Assembly: GCA_964016885.1 (NCBI GenBank) | Contig: OZ024749.1 | Coordinates: forward strand, 25,792,001-25,856,000 | DNA from: Eledone cirrhosa | Taxonomy: Eukaryota | Direction: 5' to 3' | DNA length: 64,000 nt | Part shown: positions 1,997-27,579 of the stretch, piece by piece | Layout: each line of letters opens with the position of its first letter | Position numbering within the stretch: the first letter of the stretch is position 1 | Program-made: the position numbers and the translations under genes | The notes under the pieces: model-generated | Database searches by the model: none | What the model saw: only the letters and a program-made list of their open reading frames with translations | What the model was told of the DNA's origin: nothing

Positions 1997-2041
<45 letters not shown>

Positions 2042-2046
<5 letters not shown>

Positions 2047-2255
2047 AACGAGTAGGACCCCGACGTCTGAGCTCAAGCCGTTTCGACGGCTAATGCTCAG
2101 CCGTCGGGGTCCTACTCGTTCCTATTACCCACTCTACTACCCTAAGTATTGAGTACTTTGGTGCGTTATGGTCCACATGGTTCCTTACCACATTTCCTTC
2201 GTTATATATATATATATATATATATTTATACATATATATACATATATATACATAC

Positions 2256-2286
<31 letters not shown>

Positions 2287-2292
2287 TATACA

Positions 2293-2325
<33 letters not shown>

Positions 2326-2530
2326 GTATATATATATATGTATATATATATGTATAAATATATATATATATAAAACGAAGGAAATGTGGTAAGGAACCAG
2401 GTGGACCATAAAGCACCAAAGTACTCACACTTAGGGTAGTAGAGTGGGTAATAGGAACGAGTAGGACCCCGACGGCTGAGCATTAGCCGTCGAAACAGCT
2501 TGAGCTCAGCCGTCGGGGTCCTACTCGCTC

Positions 2531-2531
<1 letters not shown>
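2042..2531. mobile_element. Two family-L copies in inverted orientation around a (TA)n tract, each with a fold-back end
   Basis: 2042-2205 and 2375-2531 are largely reverse complements. Each contains a local hairpin gaccccgacg...cgtcggggtc. Confidence 0.75.
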
Positions 2532-2570
<39 letters not shown>

Positions 2571-2574
<4 letters not shown>

Positions 2575-2758
2575 GTTTCTACTTTAGGCACAAGGCCAGC
2601 AATTACCCAGTGCATTACTGGCACTTTATTTTATCGACCCCGTAAGGATGAAAGGCAAAGTCAACCTCGGCGGGATTTGAACTCAGATCGTAAAGGGACG
2701 TAACTATGCTGGAAAGCATGGCGTCCGACCCTCTACCGATACTGCCAATCCACCGCCC
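2571..2758 (-). mobile_element. tRNA-derived SINE (cephalopod OR-like, Nin/Deu-type core)
   Basis: The minus strand starts GGGCGG, with A-box TGGCAGTATCGG, B-box GAGTTCAAATCC, core GCCTTTCATCCTTACGGGGTCGATAAA and an AT-rich tail. More than 20 copies are in the window. Confidence 0.85.
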
Positions 2759-2811
2759 TATATATATATATATAATATAAGATCAAAAGATGGTTAAAGG
2801 AGTTCCATGTT

Positions 2812-2878
2812 TTTTATTATGCGCATTTCAAAAACAAACATCATCATGCAATAATATTTATGTTTTCATCAGATAAAA
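2812..2878 (-). ncRNA. Minimal type-I hammerhead ribozyme (family A) at the PLE1 3' terminus
   Basis: ttttat-CTGATGA-aaacataaatattattgcatgatgatgtttgttttt-GAAA-tgcgca-TA-ataaaa. Stem I, the stem II hairpin, a palindromic stem III and the core are all intact. Confidence 0.85.
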
Positions 2879-2974
2879 CAGGAGAACATGATATGAAGGC
2901 TAAAAAACACTTGTGGATAGTGCAGTTTTAAATCAACATATGAAAAGTGGTTTTAGATTGATGTGTGATATTGG

Positions 2975-3390
2975 GAAAAAATATTTTATTTAGAGAGGGG
3001 GGGGGGGGGAAAGGATGAAAAGGGAAGGAGATGAGAGGGAGAGATGGGTGATAGAGAGAAAGAGATAGTTTTTATAACTGAGAGGAGATATATATTTTTA
3101 CATAGAGAGGTTGAAAACCGTTGGAAGATACTGTATAAATTAAAAATTTTGAAAATTAACGAAGGGAGGATATGTGCGAGGAAAAAATATTTTATTTAGG
3201 GAGGGGGGGGGATGAAAAAAAGGGGGAGGAGATGAGAGTGAAGGTGGAGAGGGAGAGATGGGTGATAGAGAGAAAGAGATAGTTTTTATAACTGAGAAAA
3301 AGATATATTGTTTTAACATAGAGAGGTTGGGAACCGTTTGAAGATAATGTATAAATTAAAGGAATTTGAAAATTAACGAAGGGAAATTAT
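2975..3390. repeat. About 215-bp imperfect direct duplication within the PLE1 3' UTR
   Basis: gagagggagagatgggtgatagagagaaagagatagtttttataactgaga...aaaattaacgaaggga occurs twice (about 3033-3167 and 3247-3384). Confidence 0.75.
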
Positions 3391-3873
3391 GTATGAAGAT
3401 AGAGAGAAAAAAATAATAATTGTGGATGAATATTCTAACGTCAAAAAAAGAAATGTATATATTGTGGCAATTTCAAAATTAACGAAGAGAAAAATTATTA
3501 AGGTTTGTGTGTAGAAGGATTTGAGAAAAATAATGTGAAGTTAAAGTTTGTATATTGGTTGAATTGATAATATATGCGAATAAAGAGTTAATATGTATTA
3601 ATAATGAGTTCGTTGATGGGGAGAAAAAAATAATAAATTAAGGATGAAATTGAGATTAAAAAGATTTATGATAGAGAGAAAAAATAATAATGATTGCGGA
3701 TGAATATTGTATATGTTATGATTTTACAAGGTGAAGATAGAATGAGGGTAATGAGTAAACAAGTATTATAGAGTGTATAATGCCCTTTAAAGTAAGGTAG
3801 ATGGGTATATTTTAAAGAGGTATATGTATATGTGCCTTTGAGAAAAGATTCTAAATTGATAAAGAATTGAATA

Positions 3874-5726
3874 TTAACTGTATACTTTGTGAAAAGTTCT
3901 ATGGAATTTATGCAGGCAGATAGAAAACAAATCTGTGCGTCTATTTATTATAGAATCTAGGTTAGAGATAATGGTAAATTTTTCATTTAGGCAGAGATTA
4001 CAGATTTTAGATAGAGAGCTGTTCAAGTATGAGGATGCAGAAGAAATCTTCTTCCAAAAGATGGTATATTTAATGTTTTTGTCTTTTAAGGACCATATGA
4101 GTTCTGAGAGAGCAGTGTTAGTTCTTTTAAGTTTGTATTTGAAAGATGAATGATGATTATAGAGACGAGCTTTAAAAGAGGTGGAAGTGGAGCCAAAATA
4201 GGTGAAGGAATTGGTGCTAGTTATAATTTTACATTCATAAATTAAGTTTTTATCGAGACAATGGTTGTTGAGAGGACATTTATTTTTAATGCGGCAGTTG
4301 CAATTAGAGAGATTATTAATGAGTGATCTAGTGTTATCTATAGAAGGAATTGGATTGGAGAAGTTGTTTGCGATAGGAATAATAGGAATAATAGTTTCTT
4401 GATTTAGAGTTGGATTATGAACATTTAGCGAAGTTGTGTTTGACGTTGTATTTGGGTTTACAGAAGTTAGCCTAGGGTTTACAATGACGTCGGGAGTACT
4501 ATTACTGTTATTATGAAATTCAATATTGGAAGGAAGAGATTTAGTATTTAGTATTTTATTGTTGTGTTTAGAGATGATGTTGGAAATATTGGAGGATGTA
4601 AAATACGAAAATTTGATGGTGTGTTTGTTAAATATTTTACTATAGATATGTGAGGGAGGGAAGCATTTATTTAAGGCACTAAAGAATAATTTAGGAATAT
4701 TGTTATTAATAGAGATGGAGAAAGGAGCATTATACCAGATTATGTTTTTGTATCTAGGTCTTTTATTAAAATTATTGGAATGGTCATGATTAATTATTCT
4801 ACTGTAAGTTTTTCTAGAATTTGTTTCTTTACTATATTTGATTTTATCTGGATAGCCGGCTTTAGAAAGTGCGTTATTATAGTGATTGGCGTTAGCATCA
4901 AAGATGTTTTTATTAGAAGATATGTTAGATATTCTATTTCCAATATTATTAACTATAGCATTCTTGATATTGGTAGGATGGTTAGATTTAAAGTTAACAT
5001 AATTAAGGTTCTCATTGTTTTTATGGTAAGGGTAATATAGGCCAGTGTCAAGATTAAGAGATACATCCAAGAAATTAGCTAGTTTGATACTATTATCAAA
5101 TTCAATTTTTAGGTTATGTTGGTTAAAGAGATTACGTATATTGTTCTTAATAATATTAAGGTTGACTATATTGCAATTTAGGATAGTAAAGAGTCCATCG
5201 TCACGATAAATTCCACCGCGAAGTTGAGGAATTTTCCGACTCAAAGAGTTCAAAATGAAGATACCAATTAAATCAGTCAATTGGGATGAATCAGATGCTC
5301 CCATTGTGATGTCGAAGTTGTTAGAGGTATCGGCTCTGGTCCAATATTCGTTGTTGAACTCTAGGGTGGTTTTACGTGCGGTGAGGATGATGTGAAGTTC
5401 ATCTGTGGTGATGTCAGAATATTTAAGTGCGAAAGATAGTGCATTATTGAGAAGTGAAGGCGAAATGGAGGAATAGTAGCTGGCAATATCAAATTGAATA
5501 AATTTTAGTTTGTTTTTATTATCCAATTTGTTGAACCAGCCAATCACTTCAGAAGTACCAAACCATAAATTTAGGTTCAAAGAAGAGCAATTAGAACTAA
5601 CCTGTGGGATAATTCTATCCAAGATGGCTTTACTAACAACCCCCAGATCAGATTTAGAGGGGGCGATTAATCTAACAGGTAGTTCAGTGCGAAAATTGTT
5701 TTTGTGATCCTTGAGATTTATCCTCG
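3874..5726 (-). CDS. PLE1 polyprotein, RT core plus GIY-YIG endonuclease (5' part displaced)
   Basis: [68 protein letters not shown]...YFGST, CNLCLNEK. Open to TAA at 3874. Confidence 0.9.
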
Positions 5727-5831
5727 TTAATTAACTTACTTATCCTCCTACATTAACTTGCTCCTTAACGGTTGAGCGCTTACTCTCATATTGGATACCT
5801 TTTGATGGTCCTTCACCTCTTCTTCTACAAC

Positions 5832-6654
5832 ATGGATTATTACAACATAACCAATTCAACTAAAGACATTCCTATACCTGGTAAATCTGAATTCACCAAA
5901 CTTCTTATTGAAAAAACTGACTCCTTCGTAAGAAGACTTAGATGGACAGCCTATTTCTATGACCAGCGCCTAAAAGGGAACTTTCATACCAAAGAACACA
6001 ACTTCCTCGATCATCTTTTTAATTCTAGACGAAATCCTCCTTCCAACAAAAATCTAGTACAATTCGAGGAAGAATTAACTAAAATAATAAAAAATCTTAA
6101 ATTCAAGAGATACCCTTACAAAGGACAAGAGCACCTTGTAAATCTCAAGAACACAATCTCTAACCTAAATTCCTCAAAAAATGTTTTAGTCCACTCTGAC
6201 AAAACCAATAACCTATATGGTATTTCCAAGGATAATTATAACAACCTTATCCTAAAGGAACTTAGGAAAAAGTATCGTAAAACCATCCATGAAAATTTAG
6301 AATGCATAAACCTTGAAGCCTATGAGATTATGTCAAAACTTGGCATTGAAAAAAAGACCGAACCATTCCTCCCAAGAACTCCGAGGATAAATCTCAAGGA
6401 TCACAAAAACAATTTTCGCACTGAACTACCTGTTAGATTAATCGCCCCCTCTAAATCTGATCTGGGGGTTGTTAGTAAAGCCATCTTGGATAGAATTATC
6501 CCACAGGTTAGTTCTAATTGCTCTTCTTTGAACCTAAATTTATGGTTTGGTACTTCTGAAGTGATTGGCTGGTTCAACAAATTGGATAATAAAAGCAAAC
6601 TAAAATTTATTCAATTTGATATTGCCAGCTACTATTCCTCCATTTCACCTTCAC
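5832..6654 (+). CDS. PLE1 N-terminal region to RT motif A (inverted fragment)
   Basis: [16 protein letters not shown]...[39 protein letters not shown]. The last 91 codons duplicate the start of the minus-strand frame, then the frame runs into microsatellite. Confidence 0.85.
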
Positions 6655-6781
6655 GAGTGCGTGTTTGTGCATATGCGTTTATGTGTACTTATGTGTATGT
6701 ATGTATGTATGTGTATGTATGCGTGTTTGCTTGTAAATGTGTATGTGTGTGTTCGTATATATGTATATAAATGTATATATG

Positions 6782-6844
<63 letters not shown>

Positions 6845-7047
6845 ATGGGTATATATATATATATATATGTATATTTATATATATATATGAGATTTTATAT
6901 GTATGTGTGTGTGTATGTGTATATATATGTATATATATGTGTGAATGTATGTGTTTGTGTGTGTGTGTATGTATGTGTATGTGTGTGCATATGTATGCAT
7001 GTGTATGTATAGTATATTTTACACGAGAGAGACATACGTGCATGTAG

Positions 7048-7089
<42 letters not shown>

Positions 7090-7857
7090 AAACATATATA
7101 TGTATATATATATATATGTATGTGTATGCGCACGTGTGTATGTGTAGATATATATGTGTGTGTATGTGTATGCGTGTGTGTGTGTATATTTGTGTGTGTG
7201 TGTATATTTGTGTGTTTGTGTGTTTCTTGTGTATATATGTATATGTGTGTATGTATGTATGTGGTGTGTGTGTGTGTATATATATATATATGTATATGTA
7301 TATGTCTGTATATGTGTGTGAATGTGTAGGTGTGCACACACACACACACACACATATATAAATATATATGTGTATATATATGTGTGTGTAAGTGTTTTTG
7401 TATGTGGTTGTGAGTATGTAAATATATTTTATTCTTTCCATCCTACAAAAACACTCTGGCCACCTGTGGCTTGTATGTTAACTTGACCACTCACCCCAGT
7501 CTGTGCCAGGATTCGGTCTTGTTAAATGTTTAATTTCTATTACCAACCCACCTAAATTTCCCTACTATATATCTGTTGAATTACAATTCTTGGGGTTTTT
7601 ATTTATTTATTTTTCTTATTTTTATTTATTTTTTTATTTATTTTATTTATTTATTCTTTTATCTATTTTATTCATTTATTTATTTATTTACTTATTTATT
7701 TATTTCAAAAAAGCACTCTGGCTAATTGACCACTCACCAAAGAAAAAACGGCCTGTGCCATGAAGTGGTCCTGTGTATCTAAATCCCCCCCCCCTTTCGA
7801 CCACCCCTCCTTTACCACTACCTAAATGTATAAATACCAGAACTAAATATGACACCC

Positions 7858-7908
7858 AGCTTTCTGAAGATTGCATCTGAATGAAACAGTACTAGTCCTG
7901 TAGAAGCT
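7858..7908 (+). ncRNA. Type-I hammerhead motif (family B)
   Basis: agcttt-CTGAAGA-ttgcatctgaat-GAAA-cagtactagtcctg-TA-gaagct, with a weak stem II. The downstream tail to about 7992 is homologous to 15055-15150 (inverted). Confidence 0.65.
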
Positions 7909-7994
7909 CCTTCTATAAAATAAAAAAATTTTAATCTGCCATGTATTGAGTACCTTACTTACTGTGATTATCCCCGACTCAACCCGGGACCTAC

Positions 7995-8030
<36 letters not shown>

Positions 8031-12281: not shown

Positions 12282-13049
12282 GATAGATAGAGAGAAGAGA
12301 GAGAAATAGAGGCAGAACGAGAGAAAGAGATGTAGCAAACTTATGAATATTACCAAATCTTATTCCTACTTATCATTGCCCCACGACATGCAGAAAACAT
12401 TAGAAAACTACCTATATATATATATAATCACCGACGCAGTCTAAGATAATTTCTAACACGCATTCAACTATATAGTGTGAGACATATAGAAGAAAAATTG
12501 CTTCCTTTTGCTATCATGCTTCTTAAAATCTCACAGAGCAACGTGATAAAAACGGGAAACTCTGAGTAGTAACAAGAGCCTTACGTAAAAGAAAATGAAT
12601 ATATCTTCAGACACGCGAATACACACACTTTCACACACAAAAACACGTACACAGGTATAAAAATGTGTACATACAGAGTGAGGTATGGCGAACGTTGGTC
12701 GACATGTGCAAAGAAAGTCTCATTGTACCTACAACATGCGCACTCATACAATTACAGGAATATGTATATATATAAACGGAAAAAATGAAACGAAATTTCA
12801 TTTCCCACTCTTAGTACGGCTGTTACTTAAATATAAGTAGGTACACGTACATACATATATGTATACAGACGTACAGTTGTATGTATATATATACGAGATA
12901 TATATACATACATGCACACATATATATATGTACGTATGGATTCACCGAACATTTAGTATAATGCTCGGTGTGTTTGTAAACAAACATCCCGTATTAAGCC
13001 GTAGTGTCTAGCAACCATCGTTGCTCGTTTGTTCAACACTGACAAAGGA

Positions 13050-13092
13050 ACGCTGTACTAGTTTCAAGCTTATTAGCTATCGTCAGCAACGT
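13050..13092 (-). ncRNA. Minimal hammerhead ribozyme (family C), unit 1
   Basis: acgttg-CTGACGA-tagctaataagctt-GAAA-ctag-TA-cagcgt. Confidence 0.9.
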
Positions 13093-13471
13093 ATACCTTC
13101 CTGCCAGATTTTTGAACGTATATACTTACCTTATGCATATTAACGGCTGAGTAGCCCAATTTTCATATCGAGTTGGTTAATCGGCCGGGTGCACCGAAAA
13201 CGATAAACAGAAAAATTGAAACGAAATTTAATTTCCCACTCTTAGTACGGCTGTTACTTAAATATAAGTATGTATACGTACATACATATATGTATACAGA
13301 CGTTCAGTAGTATGTATATATATATATATACATGCACACATATATATATATATACGTATGTATTCATCGAACATTTATTATAATGCTCAGTGTGTTTGTA
13401 AACAAACAGCCCGTATTAAGCCGTAGTGTCTAGCAACCATCGTTGCTCGTTTGTTCAACACTGACAAAGGA

Positions 13472-13514
13472 ACGCTGTACTAGTTTCAAGCTTATTAGCT
13501 ATCGTCAGCAACGT
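13472..13514 (-). ncRNA. Minimal hammerhead ribozyme (family C), unit 2
   Basis: Identical motif to 13050-13092. Confidence 0.9.
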
Positions 13515-13897
13515 ATACCTTCCTGCCAGATTTTTGAACGTATATACTTACCTTATGCATATTAACGGCTGAGTAGCCCAATTTTCATATCGAGTTGGTT
13601 AATCGGCCGGGTGCACCGAAAACGATAAACAGAAAAAATGAAACGAAATTTCATTTCCCACTCTTAGTACTGCTGTTACTTAAATATAAGTATGTATACG
13701 TACATACATATATGTATACAGACGTTCAGTAGTATGTATATATATATATATACATACATGCACACATATATATATACATACGTATGTATTCACCGAACAT
13801 TTATTATAATGCTCGGTGTGTTTGTAAACAAACATCCCGTATTAAACCGTAGTGTCTAGCAACCATCGTTGCTCGTTTGTTCAACACTGACGAAGGA

Positions 13898-13940
13898 ACG
13901 CTGTACTAGTTTCAAGCTTATTAGCTATCGTCAGCAACGT
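13898..13940 (-). ncRNA. Minimal hammerhead ribozyme (family C), unit 3
   Basis: Identical motif to 13050-13092. Confidence 0.9.
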
Positions 13941-14041
13941 ATACCTTTAACGATTAACCCACTCGATATGAAAATTGGGCTACTCAGCCGTTAATATGCA
14001 TAAGGTAAGTATATACGTTCAACAATTTGGCAGGAAGGTAT

Positions 14042-14084
14042 ACGTTGCTGGCGATAGCTAATAAGCTTGAAACTAGTACAGCGT
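14042..14084 (+). ncRNA. Hammerhead (family C), inverted copy with core mutation
   Basis: acgttg-CTGGCGA(A6G)-tagctaataagctt-GAAA-ctag-TA-cagcgt. Probably impaired. Confidence 0.7.
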
Positions 14085-14315
14085 TCCTTTGTCAGTGTTG
14101 AACAAACGAGCAACGATGGTTGCTAGACACTACGGCTTAATACGGGATGTTTGTTTACAAACACACCGAGCATTATAATAAATGTTTGGTGAATCCATAC
14201 GTACATATATATATGTGTGCATGTATATAGATATACATACTACTGTACGTCTGTATACATATATGTATGTACGTGTACATACTTTTGTGTACATATATAT
14301 ATATATAAATATATA

Positions 14316-15720: not shown

Positions 15721-17513
15721 ACGGGCAATCAAGAGTATTATGGGGTTTGTATTGGTAAAGTATTTTTTATGTATGATATAGAAGCTTGTGTGCAGAGAAA
15801 TATTAAAAGTGAGAAGCAAAATAATGTTATGGTTTTCGTATACACCACCATTTTCACAATCCAGGAAACGTAATATATAGATTATATGTCCTTCACATAA
15901 TCAACGATGATTCAGTATTGGATGCTTGATGTATTAGGTTAGATTATTACAGCTTGTTGTTCTTTATTCCAATTTTATAGAGCAGGTTGTTTTTGTTGCG
16001 AGAATTTACATCGTATTATTTTCCGGAAGTCTGTGTGTGATTAAGGGGAGTTAATGCGTGAAGGGAGGTAACTAGCTGATTTCTATAACTAAATTTATTA
16101 TTTCAATGTACATTAAATGGTGTCCCAATTGAGTCCCTAACATATATGGTTATAAACAGTTTCTAAATTTAAGTATCCTATCTTTAAATTACAGTCTAGT
16201 CTATCAAGAAGTACTAAAGGTGTCCATATTAGGATGATTACGCTCCATCATAGTGTCACAACTGAATATTCCACATGAAGAGTCAGATCTCCAAATCAAT
16301 GATCTTTGTAAATGTGGTCTACCCACAGAACCTGGCAGGGTTTTATTAGAACCACGTCTATATACAACCCCTGGTAAGCTCTGGGTCAGTGCATGTCTGA
16401 TTGCATGGCAAAGTTAAATACCTCTAGGGTAGACCAGAGAGCAATTCTACCTACTACAACAACAACTATACCGTCACCAACAACAATAACAACGGCACGG
16501 TCACCAACACCAAAAGCAACAAATAACACGCCTAGGACACCACCAGCAACAATACCAACACCATCAACAACAAGCACGTATTCACTACCAACAATAGCCA
16601 GGCTAACATGGCCCTCAACAAAAACGCCAAGAAGAACAAGCCCTTCTCCACTCCCACCAACCACAACGACAACTACACAGACACCAAATACGACTAATAC
16701 ACGGTCACCAACACCAAAATCAACAAGCAAATCACTGCCATCAACAACAGCAAGCACACTAGCACAACTGATAATAACTACACCAAAACTGCTCACAACA
16801 AAAACACAAACAAAAACACCAACAGAAACATCAACAACAAAAACACCAACAGCAAAACACCAACAACAAAGACATCAGCAACAAAAACATCAGCAACAAA
16901 GACATCAACAACAAAAGCACCAACAACAAAAACACCAACAACAAAAATACCATCACCTCCGCCAACCATAAGAACATTTAATCCGACATCACCAACAATA
17001 TGCAAGTCACCAGTACCAACAGAATCCATACTAAAACCTCCCACAACAAAAACGCTACCACACCAAAACCAACAGCAACATGCAGGCCACAATTATCAAA
17101 ATTAACTAATGTAAAACCACCCCCAACAAAAGCACAACATAAAGCAACTTCAACAAGCACATGTCGGCCACCAACAATAATCACCCCCCAACAGCAAGTA
17201 CGCCACAATAATCAGACAAAAAGTGCGCAAAACATGAACGACAACAACAACCCCAACAACCACAACAACAGCTACAACGACTGCAAACAGGCCACGGACA
17301 CCATAAATAACCACAACAAAACCTCCAACACAACTACAATAATCACGCAAAAAGTGCACACAAACTAAACGACGACAACAACCACAACGACAGCAAGCAT
17401 GTCATCAACACCAACAACAAACACACCAAAAACCCCCAGAAGAAAATTGCCAAGAACTCTAACAATAACCACCCACAAGTAAAATGACATCAACACCCCC
17501 TACACCAGCAAGA

Positions 17514-17830
17514 ACCACCCACAAGAAAATCGCCAACAACACTCACAACACCAACAAAAACCACCCACAAGATAATCGCCAACAACACTCACAACACCAG
17601 CAAAAACCACCCACAAGATAATCGCCAACAACACTCACAACACCAGCAAAAACCACCCACAAGATAATCGCCAACAACACTCGCAACACCAACAATAACC
17701 ACCCACAAGAAAATCGCCAACAACACTCACAACACCAACAATAACGACCCACAAGAAAATCGCCAACAACACTCACAACACCAACGATAACCACCCACAA
17801 GATAATCGCCAACAGCACTCACAACAACCA
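17514..17830 (+). repeat. 46-bp minisatellite, about 7 copies
   Basis: accacccacaagataatcgccaacaacactcacaacaccagcaaaa recurs at about 17560, 17606, 17652, 17698, 17744 and 17790. Confidence 0.85.
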
Positions 17831-17941
17831 CCAACAAATAAAACGCCAACAACACCAAGAACAACAATAATCACTCTCAAGATAAACGCCAACAAACACC
17901 GAAGCAACCAACAACAATCAGGCCACCAGCACTAACAATAA

Positions 17942-18152
17942 GGGTTTCTTATATAGACTCAAGGACAGCAATTTTATGGAAGGGGACAGTCGATTAAATT
18001 GACCCCTGTGTATTACTGGTACTTTATTGTCTCGACCAGATAAGGACGTAAAGCATAGTTAACCACGGCGGGATTTGATCTCAGATCATAAAGCACCGTT
18101 AGTCTATACTGCAAAGCATGGTGCCCGACCCTTTACCGATACTTCCAATACA
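17942..18152 (-). mobile_element. tRNA-SINE with a 14-bp target-site duplication
   Basis: SINE body flanked by agcactaacaataa at 17928-17941 and 18153-18166. Confidence 0.8.
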
Positions 18153-18237
18153 AGCACTAACAATAATCAAAGCAAAACTACCTACAAGAAAAACGACAAC
18201 AACAATATTAACCACTCTAAAACCACCCACGACATAA

Positions 18238-21200
18238 ACTTCACCAGCCCCGACAACGATAACAAAAACTAACCTGTCACCAGCAATAACAATAAAAGCA
18301 ACACTATCAAAAACACCAACAACACCTCCACTACCAACAACACCACCACTACCAACAGCACCACTAAAACCACAACTACCAACAACACCAACAACACCAA
18401 CACTACCAACAACAGCAACAACACCACCACTACCAACAACACCACCACTAACAACAGCACCACTAAAACCAGCACTACCAACAACACCAACAACACCACC
18501 ACTACCAACAACACCACCACTACCAATAACACCACCACTACCAACAACACCACCACTACCAACAACACCACCACTACCAACAACACCACCACTACCAACA
18601 ACACCACCACTACCAACAACACCACCACTACCAACAACACCAACAACACCACCACTACCAACAACACCACCACTACCAACAACACCAACAACACCACCAC
18701 TACCAACAACACCACCACTACCAACAACACCAACAACACCACCACTACCAACAACACCACCACTACCAACAACACCACCACTACCAACAACACCACCACT
18801 ACCAACAACACCAACAACACCACCACTACCAACAACACCACCACTACCAACAACACCAGCACTACCAACAACACCAACAACACCACCACTACCAACAACA
18901 CCACCACTACCAACAACACCAACAACACCACCACTACCAACAACACCACCACTACCAACAACACCAACAACACCACCACTACCAACAACACCACCACTAC
19001 CAATAACACCACCACTACCAACAACACCACCACTACCAACAACACCACCACTACCAACAACACCACCACTACCAACAACACCACCACTACCAACAACACC
19101 ACCACTACCAACAACACCACCACTACCAACAACACCACCACTACCAACAACACCAACAACACCACCACTACCAACAACACCATCACTACCAACAACACCA
19201 CCACTACCAACAACACCAACAACACCACCACTACCAACAACACCAACAACACCACCACTACCAACAACACCATCACTACCAACAACACCACCACTACCAA
19301 CAACACCAAAAACACCACCTCTACCAACAACACCAACAACACCACCACTACCAACAACACCACCACTACCAACAACACCACCACTAACAACAGCACCACT
19401 AAAACCACCACTACCAACAACACCAACAACACCACTACTATCAATAACACCAACAACACCACCAATACCAACGGCACCACTAAAACCACCACTACCAACA
19501 ACACCAACAACACCACTACTATCAACAACAACAACAACACCATCACTACCAACAACACCAACTCTACCATCAACAGGACCACTACCAACAACACCAACAA
19601 CACCATCACTACCAACAACACCACCACTACCAACAACACCAACTCTACCATCAACAGGACCACTACCAACAACACCAACAACACCACCACTACCAACAAC
19701 ACCACCACTACCAACAACACCACCACTACCAACAACACCACCACTACCAACAACACCACCACTACCAACAACACCACCACTACCAACAACACCACCACTA
19801 CCAACAACACCAACAACACCACCACTACCAACAACACCACCACTACCAACAACACCACCACTACCAACAACACCACCACTACCAACAACACCAACAACAC
19901 CACCACTACCAACAAGACCATCACTACCAACAACACCACCACTACCAACAACACCAACAACACCACCTCTACCAACAACACCAACAACACCACCACTACC
20001 AACAACACCAACAACACCACCAGTACCAACAACACCATCACTACCAACAACACCACCACTACCAACAACACCAACAACACCACCTCTACCAACAACACCA
20101 ACAACACCACCACTACCAACAACACCACCACTACCAACAACACCACCACTACCAACAACACCACCACTACCAACAACACCAACAACACCACCACTACCAA
20201 CAACACCACCACTACCAACAACACCACCACTACCAACAACACCACCACTACCAACAACACCAACAACACCACCACTACCAACAACACCACCACTACCAAC
20301 AACACCACCACTACCAACAACACCACCACTACCAACAACACCAACAACACCACCACTACCAACAACACCATCACTACCAACAACACCAACATTTCCAACA
20401 ACACCACCACTACCAACAACACCAACAACACCACCACTACCAACAACACCATCACTACCAACAACACCACCACTACCAACAACACCAACAACACCACCAC
20501 TACCAACAACACCAACAACACCAACAACACCACCACTACCAACAACACCACCACTACCAACAACACCAACAACACCACCACTACCAACAACACCACCACT
20601 ACCAACAACACCAACAACACCAACAACACCACCACTACCAACAACACCACCACTACCAACGACACCAACAACACCACCACTACCAACAACACCAACAACA
20701 CCAACAACACCACCACTACCAACAACACCAACAACACCAACAACACCACCACTACCAACAACACCAACAACACCAACAACACCACCACTACCAACAACAC
20801 CAACAACACCACCACTACCAACAACACCACCACTACCAACAACACCAACAACACCAACATCACCACCACTACCAACAACACCACCACTACCAACAACACC
20901 AACAACACCACCACTACCAACAACACCAACAACACCAACAACACCACCACTACCAACAACACCACCACTACCAACAACACCAACAACACCAACAACACCA
21001 CCACTACCAACAACACCACCACTACCAACAACACCAACAACACCACCACTACCAACAACACCAACAACACCAACAACACCACCACTACCAACAACACCAA
21101 CAACACCAACAACACCACCACTACCAACAACACCACCACTACCAACAACACCAACAACACCAACAACACCACCACTACCAACAACACCACCACTACCAAC

Positions 21201-24200
21201 AAGACCAACAACACCACCACTACCAACAACACCACCACTACCAACAACACCAACAACACCACCACTACCAACAACACCACCACTACCAACAACACCAACA
21301 ACACCAACAACACCACCACTACCAACAACACCAACAACACCACCACTACCAACAACACCAACAACACCACCACTACCAACAACACCACCACTACCAACAA
21401 CACCAACAACACTACCACTACCAACAACACCACCACTACCAACAACACCAACAACACCACCACTACCAACAACACCAACAACACCACCACTACCAACAAC
21501 ACCACCACTACCAACAACACCACCACTACCAACAACACCACCACTACCAACAGCACCACCACTACCAACAACACCAACAATACCACCACTACCAACAACA
21601 CCAACAACACCACCACTACCATCAACACCACCACTACCAACAACACCACCACTACCAACAACACCAACAACACCACCACTACCAACAACACCAACAACAC
21701 CACCACTACCAACAACACCAACAACACCACCACTACCAACAGCACCACCACTACCAACAACACCAACAATACCACCACTACCAACAACACCAACAACACC
21801 ACCACTACCAACAACACCACCACTACCAACAGCACCACCACTACCAACAACACCAACAACACCACCACTACCAACAACACCAACAATAACACCACTACCA
21901 ACAATACCACCACTACCAACAACACCAACAACACCACCACTGCCAACAGCACCACCACTACCAACAACACCAACAATAACACCACTACCATCAACACCAC
22001 CACTACCAACAACACCACCACTACCAACAGCACCACCACTACCAACAACACCAACAATACCACCACTACCAACAACACCAACAACACCACCACTACCAAC
22101 AACACCACCACTACCAACAGCACCACCACTACCAACAACACCAACAATACCACCACTACCAACAACACCAACAACACCACCACTACCATCAACACCACCA
22201 CTACCAACAACACCACCACTACCAACAACACCAACAACACCACCACTACCAACAACACCACCACTACCAACAGCACCACCACTACCAACAACACCAACAA
22301 TACCACCACTACCAACAACACCAACAACACCACCACTACCATCAACACCACCACTACCAACAACACCACCACTACCAACAACACCAACAACACCACCACT
22401 ACCAACAACACCACCACTACCAACAACACCAACAACACCACCACTACCAACAACACCAACAACACCACCACTACCAACAACACCACCACTACCAACAACA
22501 CCAACAACACCACCACTACCAACAACACCAACAACACCACCACTACCAACAACACCAACAACACCACCACTACCAACAACACCACCACTACCAACAACAC
22601 CAACAACACCACCACTACCAACAACACCACCACTACCAACAGCACCACCACTACCAACAACACCAACAATAACACCACTACCAACAACACCACCACTACC
22701 AACAACACCACCACTACCAACAACACCACCACTACCAACAACACCAACAACACCACCACTACCAACAACACCACCACTACCAAAAACACCAACAACACCA
22801 CCACTACCAAAAACACCAACAACACCACAACTACCACCACTACCATCAACACCACCACTACCAACAACACCACCACTACCAACAACACCACCACTACCAA
22901 CAACACCAACAATACCACCACTACCAACAACACCAACAACACCACCACTACCATCAACACCACCACTACCAACAACACCACCACTACCAACAACACCACC
23001 ACTACCAACAACACCAACAACACCACCACTACCATCAACACCACCACTACCAACAACACCAACAACACCACCACTACCAACAACAACACCACTACCAAAA
23101 ACACCAACAACACCACAACTACCAACAACACCAACAACACCACCACTACCATCAACACCACCACTACCAACAACACCACCACTACCAACAACACCAACAA
23201 CACCACCACTACCAAAAACACCAACAACACCACCACTACCATCAACACCACCACTACCAACAACACCACCACTACCAACAACACCAACAACACCAGCACT
23301 ACCAACAACACCAACAACACCACCACTACCAACAACAACACCACTACCAACAACACCACCACTACCAACAACACCACCACTACCAACAACACCACCACTA
23401 CCAACAACACCAACAACACCACCACTACCAACAACACCACTACCAACAACACCAAAAACACCACCACTACCAACAACACCAACAACACCACCACTACCAA
23501 CAACACCAAAAACACCACCACTACTAACAACACCAAAAACACCACCACTACCAACAACACCAACAACACCACCACTACCATCAACATCACCACTACCAAC
23601 AACACCAACAACACCACCACTACCAACAACACCACCACTACCAACAACAACACCACTACCAACAACACCAACAACACCACCACTACCAACAACACCACTA
23701 CCAACAACACCACCACTACCAACAACACCAACAACACCACCTCTACCAACAACACCACTACCAACAACACCACCACTACCAACAACACCACCACTACCAA
23801 CAACACCAACAACACCACCACTACCAACAACACCACTACCAACAACACCACCACTACCAACAACACCAACAACACCACCTCTACCAACAACACCACTACC
23901 AACAACACCACCACTACCAACAACACCACCACTACCAACAACACCAACAACACCACCACTACCAACAACACCAACAACACCACCTCTACCAACAACACCA
24001 CTACCAACAACACCACCACTACCAACAACACCACCACTACCAACAACACCAACAACACCACCACTACCAACAACACCACTACCAACAACACCACCACTAC
24101 CAACAACACCAACAACACCACCTCTACCAACAACACCACTACCAACAACACCACCACTACCAACAACACCACCACTACCAACAACACCAACAACAACACC

Positions 24201-24693
24201 ACTACCAACAGTACCACCACTACCAACAACACCAACAACACCACCACTACCATCAACACCACCACTACCAAAAACACCAACAACACCACAACTACCAACA
24301 ACACCAACAACACCACAACTACCAACAACACCAACAACAACACCACTACCAACAACACCACCACTACCAACAACACCACCACTACCAACAACAACACCAC
24401 TACCAACAACACCACCACTACCAACAACACCACCACTACCAACAACACCAACAACACCACCACTACCAACAACACCACCACTACCAACAACACCACCACT
24501 ACCAACAACACCAACAACACCACCACTACCATCAACACCACCACTACCAACAACAACACCACCACTACCAACAACAACACCTCCACTACCAACAACACCA
24601 ACAACACCACCACTACCAACAACACCAACAACACAACCACTACCAACAACACCAACAGGACCACCACTAACGACCAACAAAGAGAAGATATAG
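18238..24693 (+). repeat. 6.4-kb composite repeat (cca cca cta cca aca aca / cca aca aca); open frame (PPLPTT/PTT)n, mucin-like
   Basis: The frame is open between TAA at 18235-18237 and TAG at 24691-24693, with no ATG. Units are 9, 15 and 18 bp. The long minus-strand GSGGVV and poly-V/L ORFs are its shadows. Confidence 0.85.
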
Positions 24694-24885
24694 CGGAACA
24701 TTTCAGAATCAATGAAGAGGAATAATAGATGGGAGAAGTATAAAGGGTTATATCATTTATAAATTATAATAATTTTTATATGAATTTAAATAGACTTAAT
24801 TAGAAATTTAAATTATAACATAAAATTTAAAACGCTTCAAAATCTTTAAAAAGAACATCAAACGAGATAGTGAATATAATTATAA

Positions 24886-24932
<47 letters not shown>

Positions 24933-25435
24933 TATGTATCATCCGTACTAAGAGTGAGAGATGAAATTTCGTTTCATTCTTTTCCATATACGTATATATA
25001 TATATTTATATATATATGTCGGGGCGAGGGGTTTCTGCGTGCGCCTGTGTTTTTATCCATATATATATATATATATATGTCTGTGTGTGTCTGTGTGTGT
25101 GTGTGTGTGTGCGTGTGCGTGTATATACATAAGTATGTGTGTATATATCTGGAAAAAGATAGAGAGTGTGATAAATGTATATATATATTTTTTATATAAT
25201 ATTTTAAAGATATATATATATGTATATATGTATGCATGTATGTATGCATGTATGTATGAATATATGTATGAATTAATGTATGCATCCATATATGTATGTG
25301 TACGTGTGTGTATGTGCGTAGTATATAATTACAAACGGAGGTATTGAGAAAATGAACGAAGTTTATTGAAAGCGTGAAAACAATATTATTTTTTCCCTAT
25401 ATTTTAGTACAAAAATACGCTAAGGAGACGATATA

Positions 25436-27060: not shown

Positions 27061-27123
<63 letters not shown>

Positions 27124-27210
27124 GGAGGTGAGTTTTATTGTAGTACAATAGAGCAATGCAGATATCGGATAAGAAGCACTCTACAGTTTGTGGGACTGGA
27201 GTATGCATAA

Positions 27211-27539
27211 TATAAGATCAAAAGATGGTTAAAGGAGTTCAATATATTTTATTATGCGCATTTCAAAAACAAACATCATCAAACAATAATATTTGTGTTT
27301 TCATCAGATAAAACATGAGAACATGATATGAAGGCTAAAAAAACACTTGTGGATAGTGCAGTTTTAAATCAACATATGTTGATTTAAAACTGCACTATCC
27401 ACAAGTGTTTTTTAGCCTTCATATCATGTTCTCCTATTTTATCTGATGAAAACACAAATATTATTGCATGATGGTGTTTGTTTTTGAAATGCGCATAATA
27501 AAATATATGGAACTCCTTTAACCATCTTTTGATCTTATA
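27211..27539. mobile_element. Spacer-less palindrome of the PLE1 terminus with two intact HHRs (27247-27313 minus, 27437-27503 plus)
   Basis: Each arm matches 2777-2942. The centre is the 6-bp palindrome catatg (27373-27378). Confidence 0.9.
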
Positions 27540-27540
27540 T

Positions 27541-27579
<39 letters not shown>

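What the first reader, a model, noticed from the sequence alone, without database searches (positions are those of the whole stretch)
2777..6654. Complete Naiad-type PLE ORF split into two opposite-strand halves
Seen: the layout is rc(C) rc(B) A B, with B = 273 bp duplicated and only two differences noticed. Joining 5832-6653 (+) to 5454-3874 (-) gives a stop-free RT-GIY-YIG protein of about 800 aa. Established: the YRDD, MG..D.....L.G and IIW.N.P.S motifs and (AT)n targeting fit Naiad PLEs. Inference: this is a recent insertion with a 5' inversion plus duplication (twin-priming or template-switch-like), unlike the usual inverted 3' pLTR. The family is probably still active and is the likely mobiliser of the 27211 palindrome.
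Basis: partly seen in the sequence, partly recalled or inferred. Interest (0 to 1): 0.7.

Follow-up and report, generated by a model that had tools for sequence, protein, structure and literature searches.

The report
Clipped two-armed Hydra-clade Penelope insertion
This is a young jumping gene of a known group (Hydra-type Penelope elements, not Naiads) whose two back-to-back partial copies together still spell the whole protein, likely because a deletion clipped one copy and fused it to an older neighbouring element of another family.

Summary
The layout is real: a 273-nt inverted duplication with two differences, and halves that add up to a stop-free 800-aa protein. It is not a Naiad. The GIY-YIG is C-terminal, and DKT, CxCx5C, CxxC/CxH, no CCHH and a hammerhead motif mark the Hydra clade. 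The family is young (median 0.18% private changes; 25 of 47 frames intact). Most copies (47 of 69) are ordinary head-to-head pairs in (TA)n. The 27.1-27.5 kb palindrome is one such truncated pair, not a separate passenger. New here: the right flank is the 3' arm of a second Hydra family, joined at 2 nt of microhomology and apparently older (1.13% versus 0.21%). Seven of eight non-(TA)n junctions inspected run into another family's outward arm. Best reading: a two-armed insertion lost the outer part of one arm and the neighbour's inner arm in one deletion. Twin priming and a two-RNA co-insertion remain open. No reads span the junctions. Overlapping inverted halves are published for rotifer Pen3, and this scan noted Hydra two-armed and mixed-family insertions on other DNA of this genome.

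The parts
2759..2773 (.). (TA)n target tract at the left end
   Evidence: sequence
2774..5726 (-). left arm: 5'-truncated Hydra-clade copy (family H), from inside the RT to the 3' end, without tail
   Evidence: 98.1% to natural copy L028; 3' end matches other copies
2812..2878 (-). type I hammerhead motif: CUGAUGA core 2872-2866, GAAA, 2-bp stem III with palindromic GCGC loop, predicted cut after 2818
   Evidence: structure placed by hand pairs in 99.3% of cells over 6 distinct copies, no compensatory change; not the minimum-energy fold; no Rfam hammerhead hit
2777..3873 (-). 1.1-kb 3' UTR with internal ~210-nt repeats
3874..4302 (-). C-terminal GIY-YIG endonuclease with CxCx5C linker, CxxC and CxH, no CCHH
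   Evidence: translation, alignment with 10 homologues
4303..4545 (-). 81-aa Asn/Ser/Thr/Ile/Pro-rich stretch, about 70 aa longer than in the 10 homologues
   Evidence: 18 of 81 residues Asn
5454..5726 (-). B, duplicated 273 nt, family-type copy
5727..5743 (.). 17-nt filler at the head-to-head junction, partly matching sequence on both sides
   Evidence: 14 of 56 head-to-head junctions show gaps of 8 nt or more, some of them alignment breaks
5744..6654 (+). right arm remnant: 5' part of H from the last 10 nt of the tail through ATG 5832 (RWT, DKT) to an internal end; includes B' 6382-6654
   Evidence: 99.7% to L028; same haplotype as the left arm at 6 of 6 polymorphic sites in the overlap
6653..7996 (+). 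3' arm of a second Hydra-type family (Y), 5'-truncated, with hammerhead core 7864-7886 and tail, ending in (TA)n at 7997; 2-nt microhomology AC at 6653-6654
27119..27541 (.). separate, heavily truncated two-armed insertion of family H: two 166-nt arms meeting at CATATG (27373-27378), 90-nt tail on the left arm

Best explanation
This is a two-armed (head-to-head) insertion of a Hydra-clade Penelope-like retrotransposon whose right arm was likely clipped by a deletion that joined it to the outward arm of an older neighbouring element. Shown: the arms, the filler, the internal end at 6654, the neighbour Y, the 2-nt microhomology and the missing head of Y. Inferred from the family and from PMC11167929: the enzyme cut both strands in (TA)n and each end primed a cDNA at one of two fixed starts on the same source RNA. 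The left cDNA stopped 2.95 kb in, the right ran almost full length, and repair joined their 3' ends with a filler. Inferred: the resulting long inverted repeat (655-nt spacer) lay beside Y's own inverted pair. During integration or later, a microhomology-joined deletion removed about 2.8 kb of the right arm, the (TA)n and Y's inner part. What survives is the unpaired spacer A plus 273 nt of stem, so the two remnants cover the whole frame. This copy cannot make the protein.
For: 47 of 69 insertions are two-armed with both outer ends at a 3' terminus (45 by script; L026 and L046 moved by eye); 44 of those 45 sit in (TA)n against 1 of 7 internally ended arms (Fisher p 2e-6). Other Y copies continue 570-670 nt or more upstream of the joint, and none of that lies left of the H element. 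Seven of 8 non-(TA)n junctions inspected lead into another family's outward arm, two with an inverted remnant of the partner (L024, L077). Y carries 6 private changes in 529 sites against 8 in 3806 for H (p 0.004); L064 is similar (p 0.0009). Exactly one tail occurs in 43 of 45 scored same-family pairs but in only 2 of 5 mixed joints. No start-type hairpin follows any of the 7 internal ends. Five of 7 internally ended arms end just past the start of the sense arm (overlaps 13, 13, 33, 273, 828) and one is a 434-nt gap, whereas L1 twin priming gives 66% deletions and 17% duplications (10.1101/2024.08.27.596794, passage).
Against: No pre-deletion allele was seen; no read or contig from the 6 runs laid spans either junction. 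The window itself obeys the one-tail rule (H without, Y with), as a single event would. In L024 and L052 the partners are as young as H. Partner families were sampled with only 9-21 loci against 70 for H, which inflates their private counts (a 21-locus subsample raised the H 3' UTR only from 0.27% to 0.36%). No inward-pointing partner was found although inward neighbours are common beyond ordinary ends (13 inward, 8 outward, 34 none of 55, crude motif scan), so the model needs breaks near the centre of the neighbour's inverted pair, which is untested. Overlaps of 13 nt also fit twin priming.
Confidence: 0.5

Rival explanations
1. Two-RNA co-insertion: one break, or two synchronous breaks, was patched by two families. 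The right cDNA started at Y's tail, copied 1.34 kb of Y RNA, jumped at 2 nt of microhomology to H RNA at 6654, ran to 5744 and was joined to the left H cDNA. The insertion would then be 2774-7996.
For: Both outer ends are PLE 3' termini in (TA)n, one with and one without tail. All 7 partners found point outward. Partners in L024 and L052 are as young as H.
Against: Y looks about five times older than H here, and no Y copy above 97% identity was found among 40 scored of 920 candidates. The one-tail rule fails in 3 of 5 mixed joints. PMC3846280 (passage) reports no cross-mobilisation between the EN+ and EN- PLE types in the rotifer.
Confidence: 0.22
2. L1-style twin priming: the second target end, resected or nicked inside Y, primed on the same H RNA at 6654 and copied its 5' part, while the first cDNA overran that site by 273 nt.
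For: The geometry is that of a 5' inversion with internal duplication. Both arms share one haplotype. Three other copies have overlaps of 13, 13 and 33 nt, near the L1 median of 22 (10.1101/2024.08.27.596794). A PLE enzyme extends both strands and starts internally without homology (PMC11167929).
Against: No target-site duplication; it still needs loss of Y's head. 273 nt is far above the L1 median. Duplication types outnumber gaps 5 to 1, the reverse of L1. It does not explain why the second end so often lies in another PLE's outward arm.
Confidence: 0.2
3. Misassembly or a chimeric read fused two repeat-rich loci or folded the element back.
For: Long inverted repeats trouble assemblies (PMC8557442, section 6), and no independent reads span the junctions.
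Against: A 17-nt patchwork filler, a 655-nt spacer, two private substitutions in one arm and only 2 nt of overlap at the H-Y joint are not what an overlap collapse or a fold-back read gives. Six other loci show internally ended arms.
Confidence: 0.06

Closest known systems
Hydra clade of C-terminal EN+ PLEs (Craig et al. 2021, PMC8557442), e.g. Hydra-1_Obim, Hydra-1_Crog, Penelope-13_HM
   Same: RT then GIY-YIG; DKT, CxCx5C, CxxC and CxH, no CCHH; hammerhead near the 3' end; (TA)n target; inverted 5'-truncated copy with a tail at one end. By eye the supplement's Hydra-1_Obim shares the DKT, DHK, RLI, FIQFDI, MGA and YRDD blocks.
   Different: 3.7 kb instead of generally under 3 kb; RWT for RWK; about 70 extra Asn-rich residues before the endonuclease; 1.1-kb 3' UTR; 90-92-nt tail instead of 30-40.
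Adineta vaga Pen3 copies with permuted overlapping 5' and 3' halves in inverted orientation (Arkhipova et al. 2013, PMC3846280, section 7)
   Same: [quoted passage not shown]
   Different: Another host and family; flanks were not resolved there, and no joint to a second family was described in what I read.
L1 twin priming, 5' inversion with internal duplication (10.1101/2024.08.27.596794)
   Same: Inverted 5' part joined head-to-head to the 3' part with an overlap.
   Different: No poly(A), no target-site duplication, 273-nt overlap against a 22-bp median, and the outer end lies inside another element.
Naiad clade (PMC8557442)
   Same: PLE-type RT, (TA)n preference, tandem and inverted insertions.
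   Different: Naiads have the endonuclease at the N-terminus, DKA, CCHH and no canonical hammerhead; none of these holds here.

Membership tests
Naiad | GIY-YIG N-terminal to the RT | tested here: not met
   YRDD at residue 357, endonuclease from 659 to the C-terminus; Naiad proteins in the supplement begin with the endonuclease
Naiad | DKG modified to DKA | tested here: not met
   DKT
Naiad | [quoted passage not shown] | tested here: not met
   one cysteine only; canonical PLEs of the same genome show CxxC there
Naiad | No canonical hammerhead | tested here: not met
   full motif at 2812-2878
Naiad | RT groups with Naiad RTs in a tree | not testable with these tools
Hydra | Single ORF, C-terminal GIY-YIG | tested here: met
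Hydra | DKT motif | tested here: met
Hydra | RWK motif | tested here: inconclusive
   RWT at the aligned position; most homologues have RWK
Hydra | CxCx5C linker, CxxC and CxH around the conserved E and N, CCHH absent | tested here: met
   against PMC8557442 section 11
Hydra | Canonical hammerhead near the 3' end | tested here: met
   motif and pairing; cleavage untested; Rfam gave no hit
Hydra | (TA)n insertion | tested here: met
   44 of 45 terminal inverted arms
Hydra | Generally shorter than 3 kb | tested here: not met
   unit of 3692 nt plus 3; the paper gives this as a tendency and lists one 3045-nt entry
Hydra | RT apart from Penelope/Neptune/Nematis, within Hydra | tested here: inconclusive
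   tree of 18 rows separates the window family plus 10 unnamed DKT-type homologues from 6 canonical PLEs of this genome at 100/100; two rows were badly cut, and no labelled Hydra reference was in the tree
L1-type twin priming product | Target-site duplication around the whole insertion | tested here: not met
   left end in (TA)n, right end inside element Y
L1-type twin priming product | Microhomology between second primer and RNA | tested here: inconclusive
   2 nt, no more than chance or end-joining gives
L1-type twin priming product | Both parts from one RNA | tested here: met
   same haplotype at 6 of 6 sites, but ordinary two-armed copies also mostly share haplotypes, so this does not discriminate

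The most novel reading that the evidence does not exclude
Penelope-like enzymes of different families patch one DNA break together: a cDNA begun on one family's RNA jumps to another family's RNA, giving mixed two-armed insertions such as 2774-7996. With 7 such joints among 69 insertions, this would be a routine route for swapping 3' ends, ribozymes and start signals between PLE families, and possibly for joining distant (TA)n sites.
Probability: 0.2. Interest if true: 0.72.

Novelty: new member of a known kind. Interest (0 to 1): 0.38.

Why it matters
The element and its layout are precedented. What is useful is the family-wide count. How PLEs build their inverted ends is unresolved (PMC8557442, section 15). 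This family shows a near-absolute one-tail rule and one source haplotype per insertion. About one insertion in ten ends instead inside another family's outward arm. Either two-armed PLE insertions make (TA)n clusters deletion hotspots that erase kilobases, or different PLE families share breaks. One population long-read data set would tell which.

Tried and rejected
Pfam found nothing at cut-off for either half or for 11 aligned proteins; PDB gave nothing below E 0.65. Rfam gave no hammerhead and only sub-threshold miRNA-like hits. My first hand-drawn hammerhead structure was out of register and was corrected. Public runs held 40-62% of the words at best; laid on both junctions they showed only the ordinary family continuation, which proves nothing either way. 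A search for a second haplotype with the right flank found a repeat family instead. Cryptic start hairpins after the internal ends were not found (the second normal start also folded weakly, so the test is blunt). Different source elements for the two arms: rejected. A Naiad for the tree was sought through PF01541 and not found. The orientation control uses a motif that misses hammerhead variants and looks only 900 nt out, so it is not comparable with the by-eye partner count. Searches for twin priming or mixed-family joints in PLEs found no paper on that subject among the rows listed (open-access library only).

Full report
Observation. The inverted repeat 5454-5726 / 6382-6654 is 273 nt with two differences, at 6595 and 6647. 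The + arm from ATG 5832 and the - arm down to 3874 give 800 aa without a stop. A search with the junction region had 2109 candidates, 40 scored. I fetched 39 of these and 31 further loci from a 5' query. All are top-scoring, long copies, so every count below is biased towards young, long insertions. Collinear copies are the rule. Frames of 780 aa or more occur in 8 of 19 and 17 of 28 copies where the start was located. Mean pairwise difference in the frame is 1.34% and the median private rate 0.18% over 60 copies. Both differences in B are private to the + arm (38 of 38 scorable). 5727-5743 is filler; parts of it match sequence on both sides.

Clade. PMC8557442 (read: abstract, sections 3, 6, 11, 12, 15, supplement parts 1, 2, 5 and search passages, with sequence runs cut; the rest of the supplement was not seen) defines Naiads by an N-terminal GIY-YIG, DKA, CCHH and lack of a canonical hammerhead. 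It defines Hydra by a C-terminal GIY-YIG, RWK, DKT, CxCx5C, CxxC and CxH, no CCHH, a hammerhead and (TA)n. The protein has RWT, DKT, CxCx5C, CxxC, CxH and one cysteine in the GIY-YIG core. Fifteen unnamed homologues at 33-39% identity were found; the ten aligned show the same layout. A tree separates this group from six canonical PLEs of the same genome at 100/100, with two badly cut rows and no labelled Naiad or Hydra reference. A hammerhead motif lies at 2812-2878 on the - strand; it is not the minimum-energy fold, which fits the dimer-type motifs of PMC4209133 (part 1 of 4 read). Departures from published Hydra elements are length (3.7 kb), about 70 extra Asn-rich residues and a 90-92-nt tail.

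Family anatomy. Of 69 distinct insertions (70 loci plus the window, L031 and L062 dropped as duplicates), the script called 45 two-armed with a terminal outer end, 7 with an internally ended inverted arm and 17 direct; L026 and L046 are two-armed on inspection, giving 47. Exactly one end carries the tail in 43 of 45 scored pairs, two were not scorable, and the two exceptions look like scoring artefacts. In 14 long pairs the arms differ at 0-18 sites, of which 0-3 are family polymorphisms. This fits one source RNA with two starts, as shown in vitro for Poseidon_Ac, which cuts and extends both strands (PMC11167929, parts 1-2 of 4 read). The palindrome at 27119-27541 is such a pair, truncated to 166 nt per arm and joined at CATATG.

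The right junction. The first 23 nt beyond 6654 occur 108 times in the genome. They belong to a second family, Y, with Hydra-type frames, a hammerhead core at 7864 and two alternative ends. Other Y copies continue upstream; the joint shares only AC; the upstream part of Y is not found left of the H element. I then read the outer flanks of 8 other loci (the 6 other internally ended arms, and L064 and L052). L081 is (TA)n and L020 is unrelated DNA. L024, L034, L043, L052, L064 and L077 run into the outward 3' end of another PLE or retrozyme-like family ending at (TA)n. The L043 partner was judged from its motif and repeat unit only. With the window that is 7 of 8 non-(TA)n junctions. L051, L029, L054 and L058 had mixed or TA-rich flanks and were not followed. 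The one-tail rule holds in the window and L024, fails in L034, L077 and L052, and could not be scored in L043 and L064. Private changes, H against partner: window 0.21 and 1.13%, L064 0.18 and 1.03%, L034 0.17 and 0.64%, L024 0.23 and 0.20%, L052 0.17 and 0.11%; partner families were thinly sampled.

Mechanism. I favour an ordinary two-armed insertion beside an older Y insertion, followed by a deletion from just past the start of H's stem into Y's outward arm (0.5). Inverted repeats fold back and rearrange in single-stranded DNA even when widely spaced (PMC10164571, abstract only), and TA repeats break and are repaired by microhomology joining (PMC13645644, abstract only); applying this here is inference. 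A two-RNA co-insertion (0.22) explains the outward partners best but fits the age gap badly. Twin priming (0.2) fits the geometry, but L1 products are mostly deletions with short overlaps (10.1101/2024.08.27.596794, passages). Misassembly is unlikely (0.06) but not excluded, since no run laid spans the junctions.

Novelty. Overlapping inverted halves of a PLE frame, and Asn-rich inserts, are described for Adineta vaga Pen3 and Pen2a (PMC3846280, section 7 and passages). The link of retrozymes to PLEs is proposed in 10.64898/2026.07.22.740005 (abstract only). Three searches listed no paper on twin priming or mixed-family joints in PLEs. Unchecked notes of this scan describe Hydra two-armed insertions and single mixed joints elsewhere in this genome. 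The element is a new member of a known clade in a known layout; the recurring mixed-family joint is the part worth a follow-up.

Noticed in passing
window 1998-2578: Two small two-armed insertions of another very young PLE family (the L052 partner, V), each a short inverted 3' end plus 3' end and tail, lying tail-to-tail across (TA)n; relatives at 422-610, 42.4-42.7 kb, 44.7-45.1 kb and 56.1-57.2 kb.
   Followed up: partly
window 2569-2760: A ~190-nt repeat with more than 15 copies in the window forms the left neighbour of the insertion.
   Followed up: no
G000:C6:38071213-38089520 (L061, L062): Five tandem full-length units of family H with a period near 3657 nt, headed by an inverted arm.
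   Followed up: partly
L068 and L078: Head-to-head insertions with a full-length copy on each side, differing at 4 and 8 of about 2490 sites.
   Followed up: partly
L030 and L031 (C4, 290 kb apart, opposite strands): Same insertion with the same flank: a segmental duplication or an assembly duplicate.
   Followed up: no
L065:4854-4938: An 85-nt filler at the head-to-head junction whose end resembles the 3' UTR of the L024 partner family, seen by eye; a possible captured piece of another family.
   Followed up: no
window 12759-14284: A 430-nt tandem repeat that switches orientation near 13950, retrozyme-like in layout.
   Followed up: no
window 16400-25000: About 8 kb of strongly strand-skewed ACC/AAC repeats that could code a Thr/Asn-rich, mucin-like stretch.
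   Followed up: no
L111, L117, L119, L120: Several further Hydra-type families coexist in this genome, one (L117) with its own low-complexity inserts, beside canonical DKG/CCHH PLEs.
   Followed up: no
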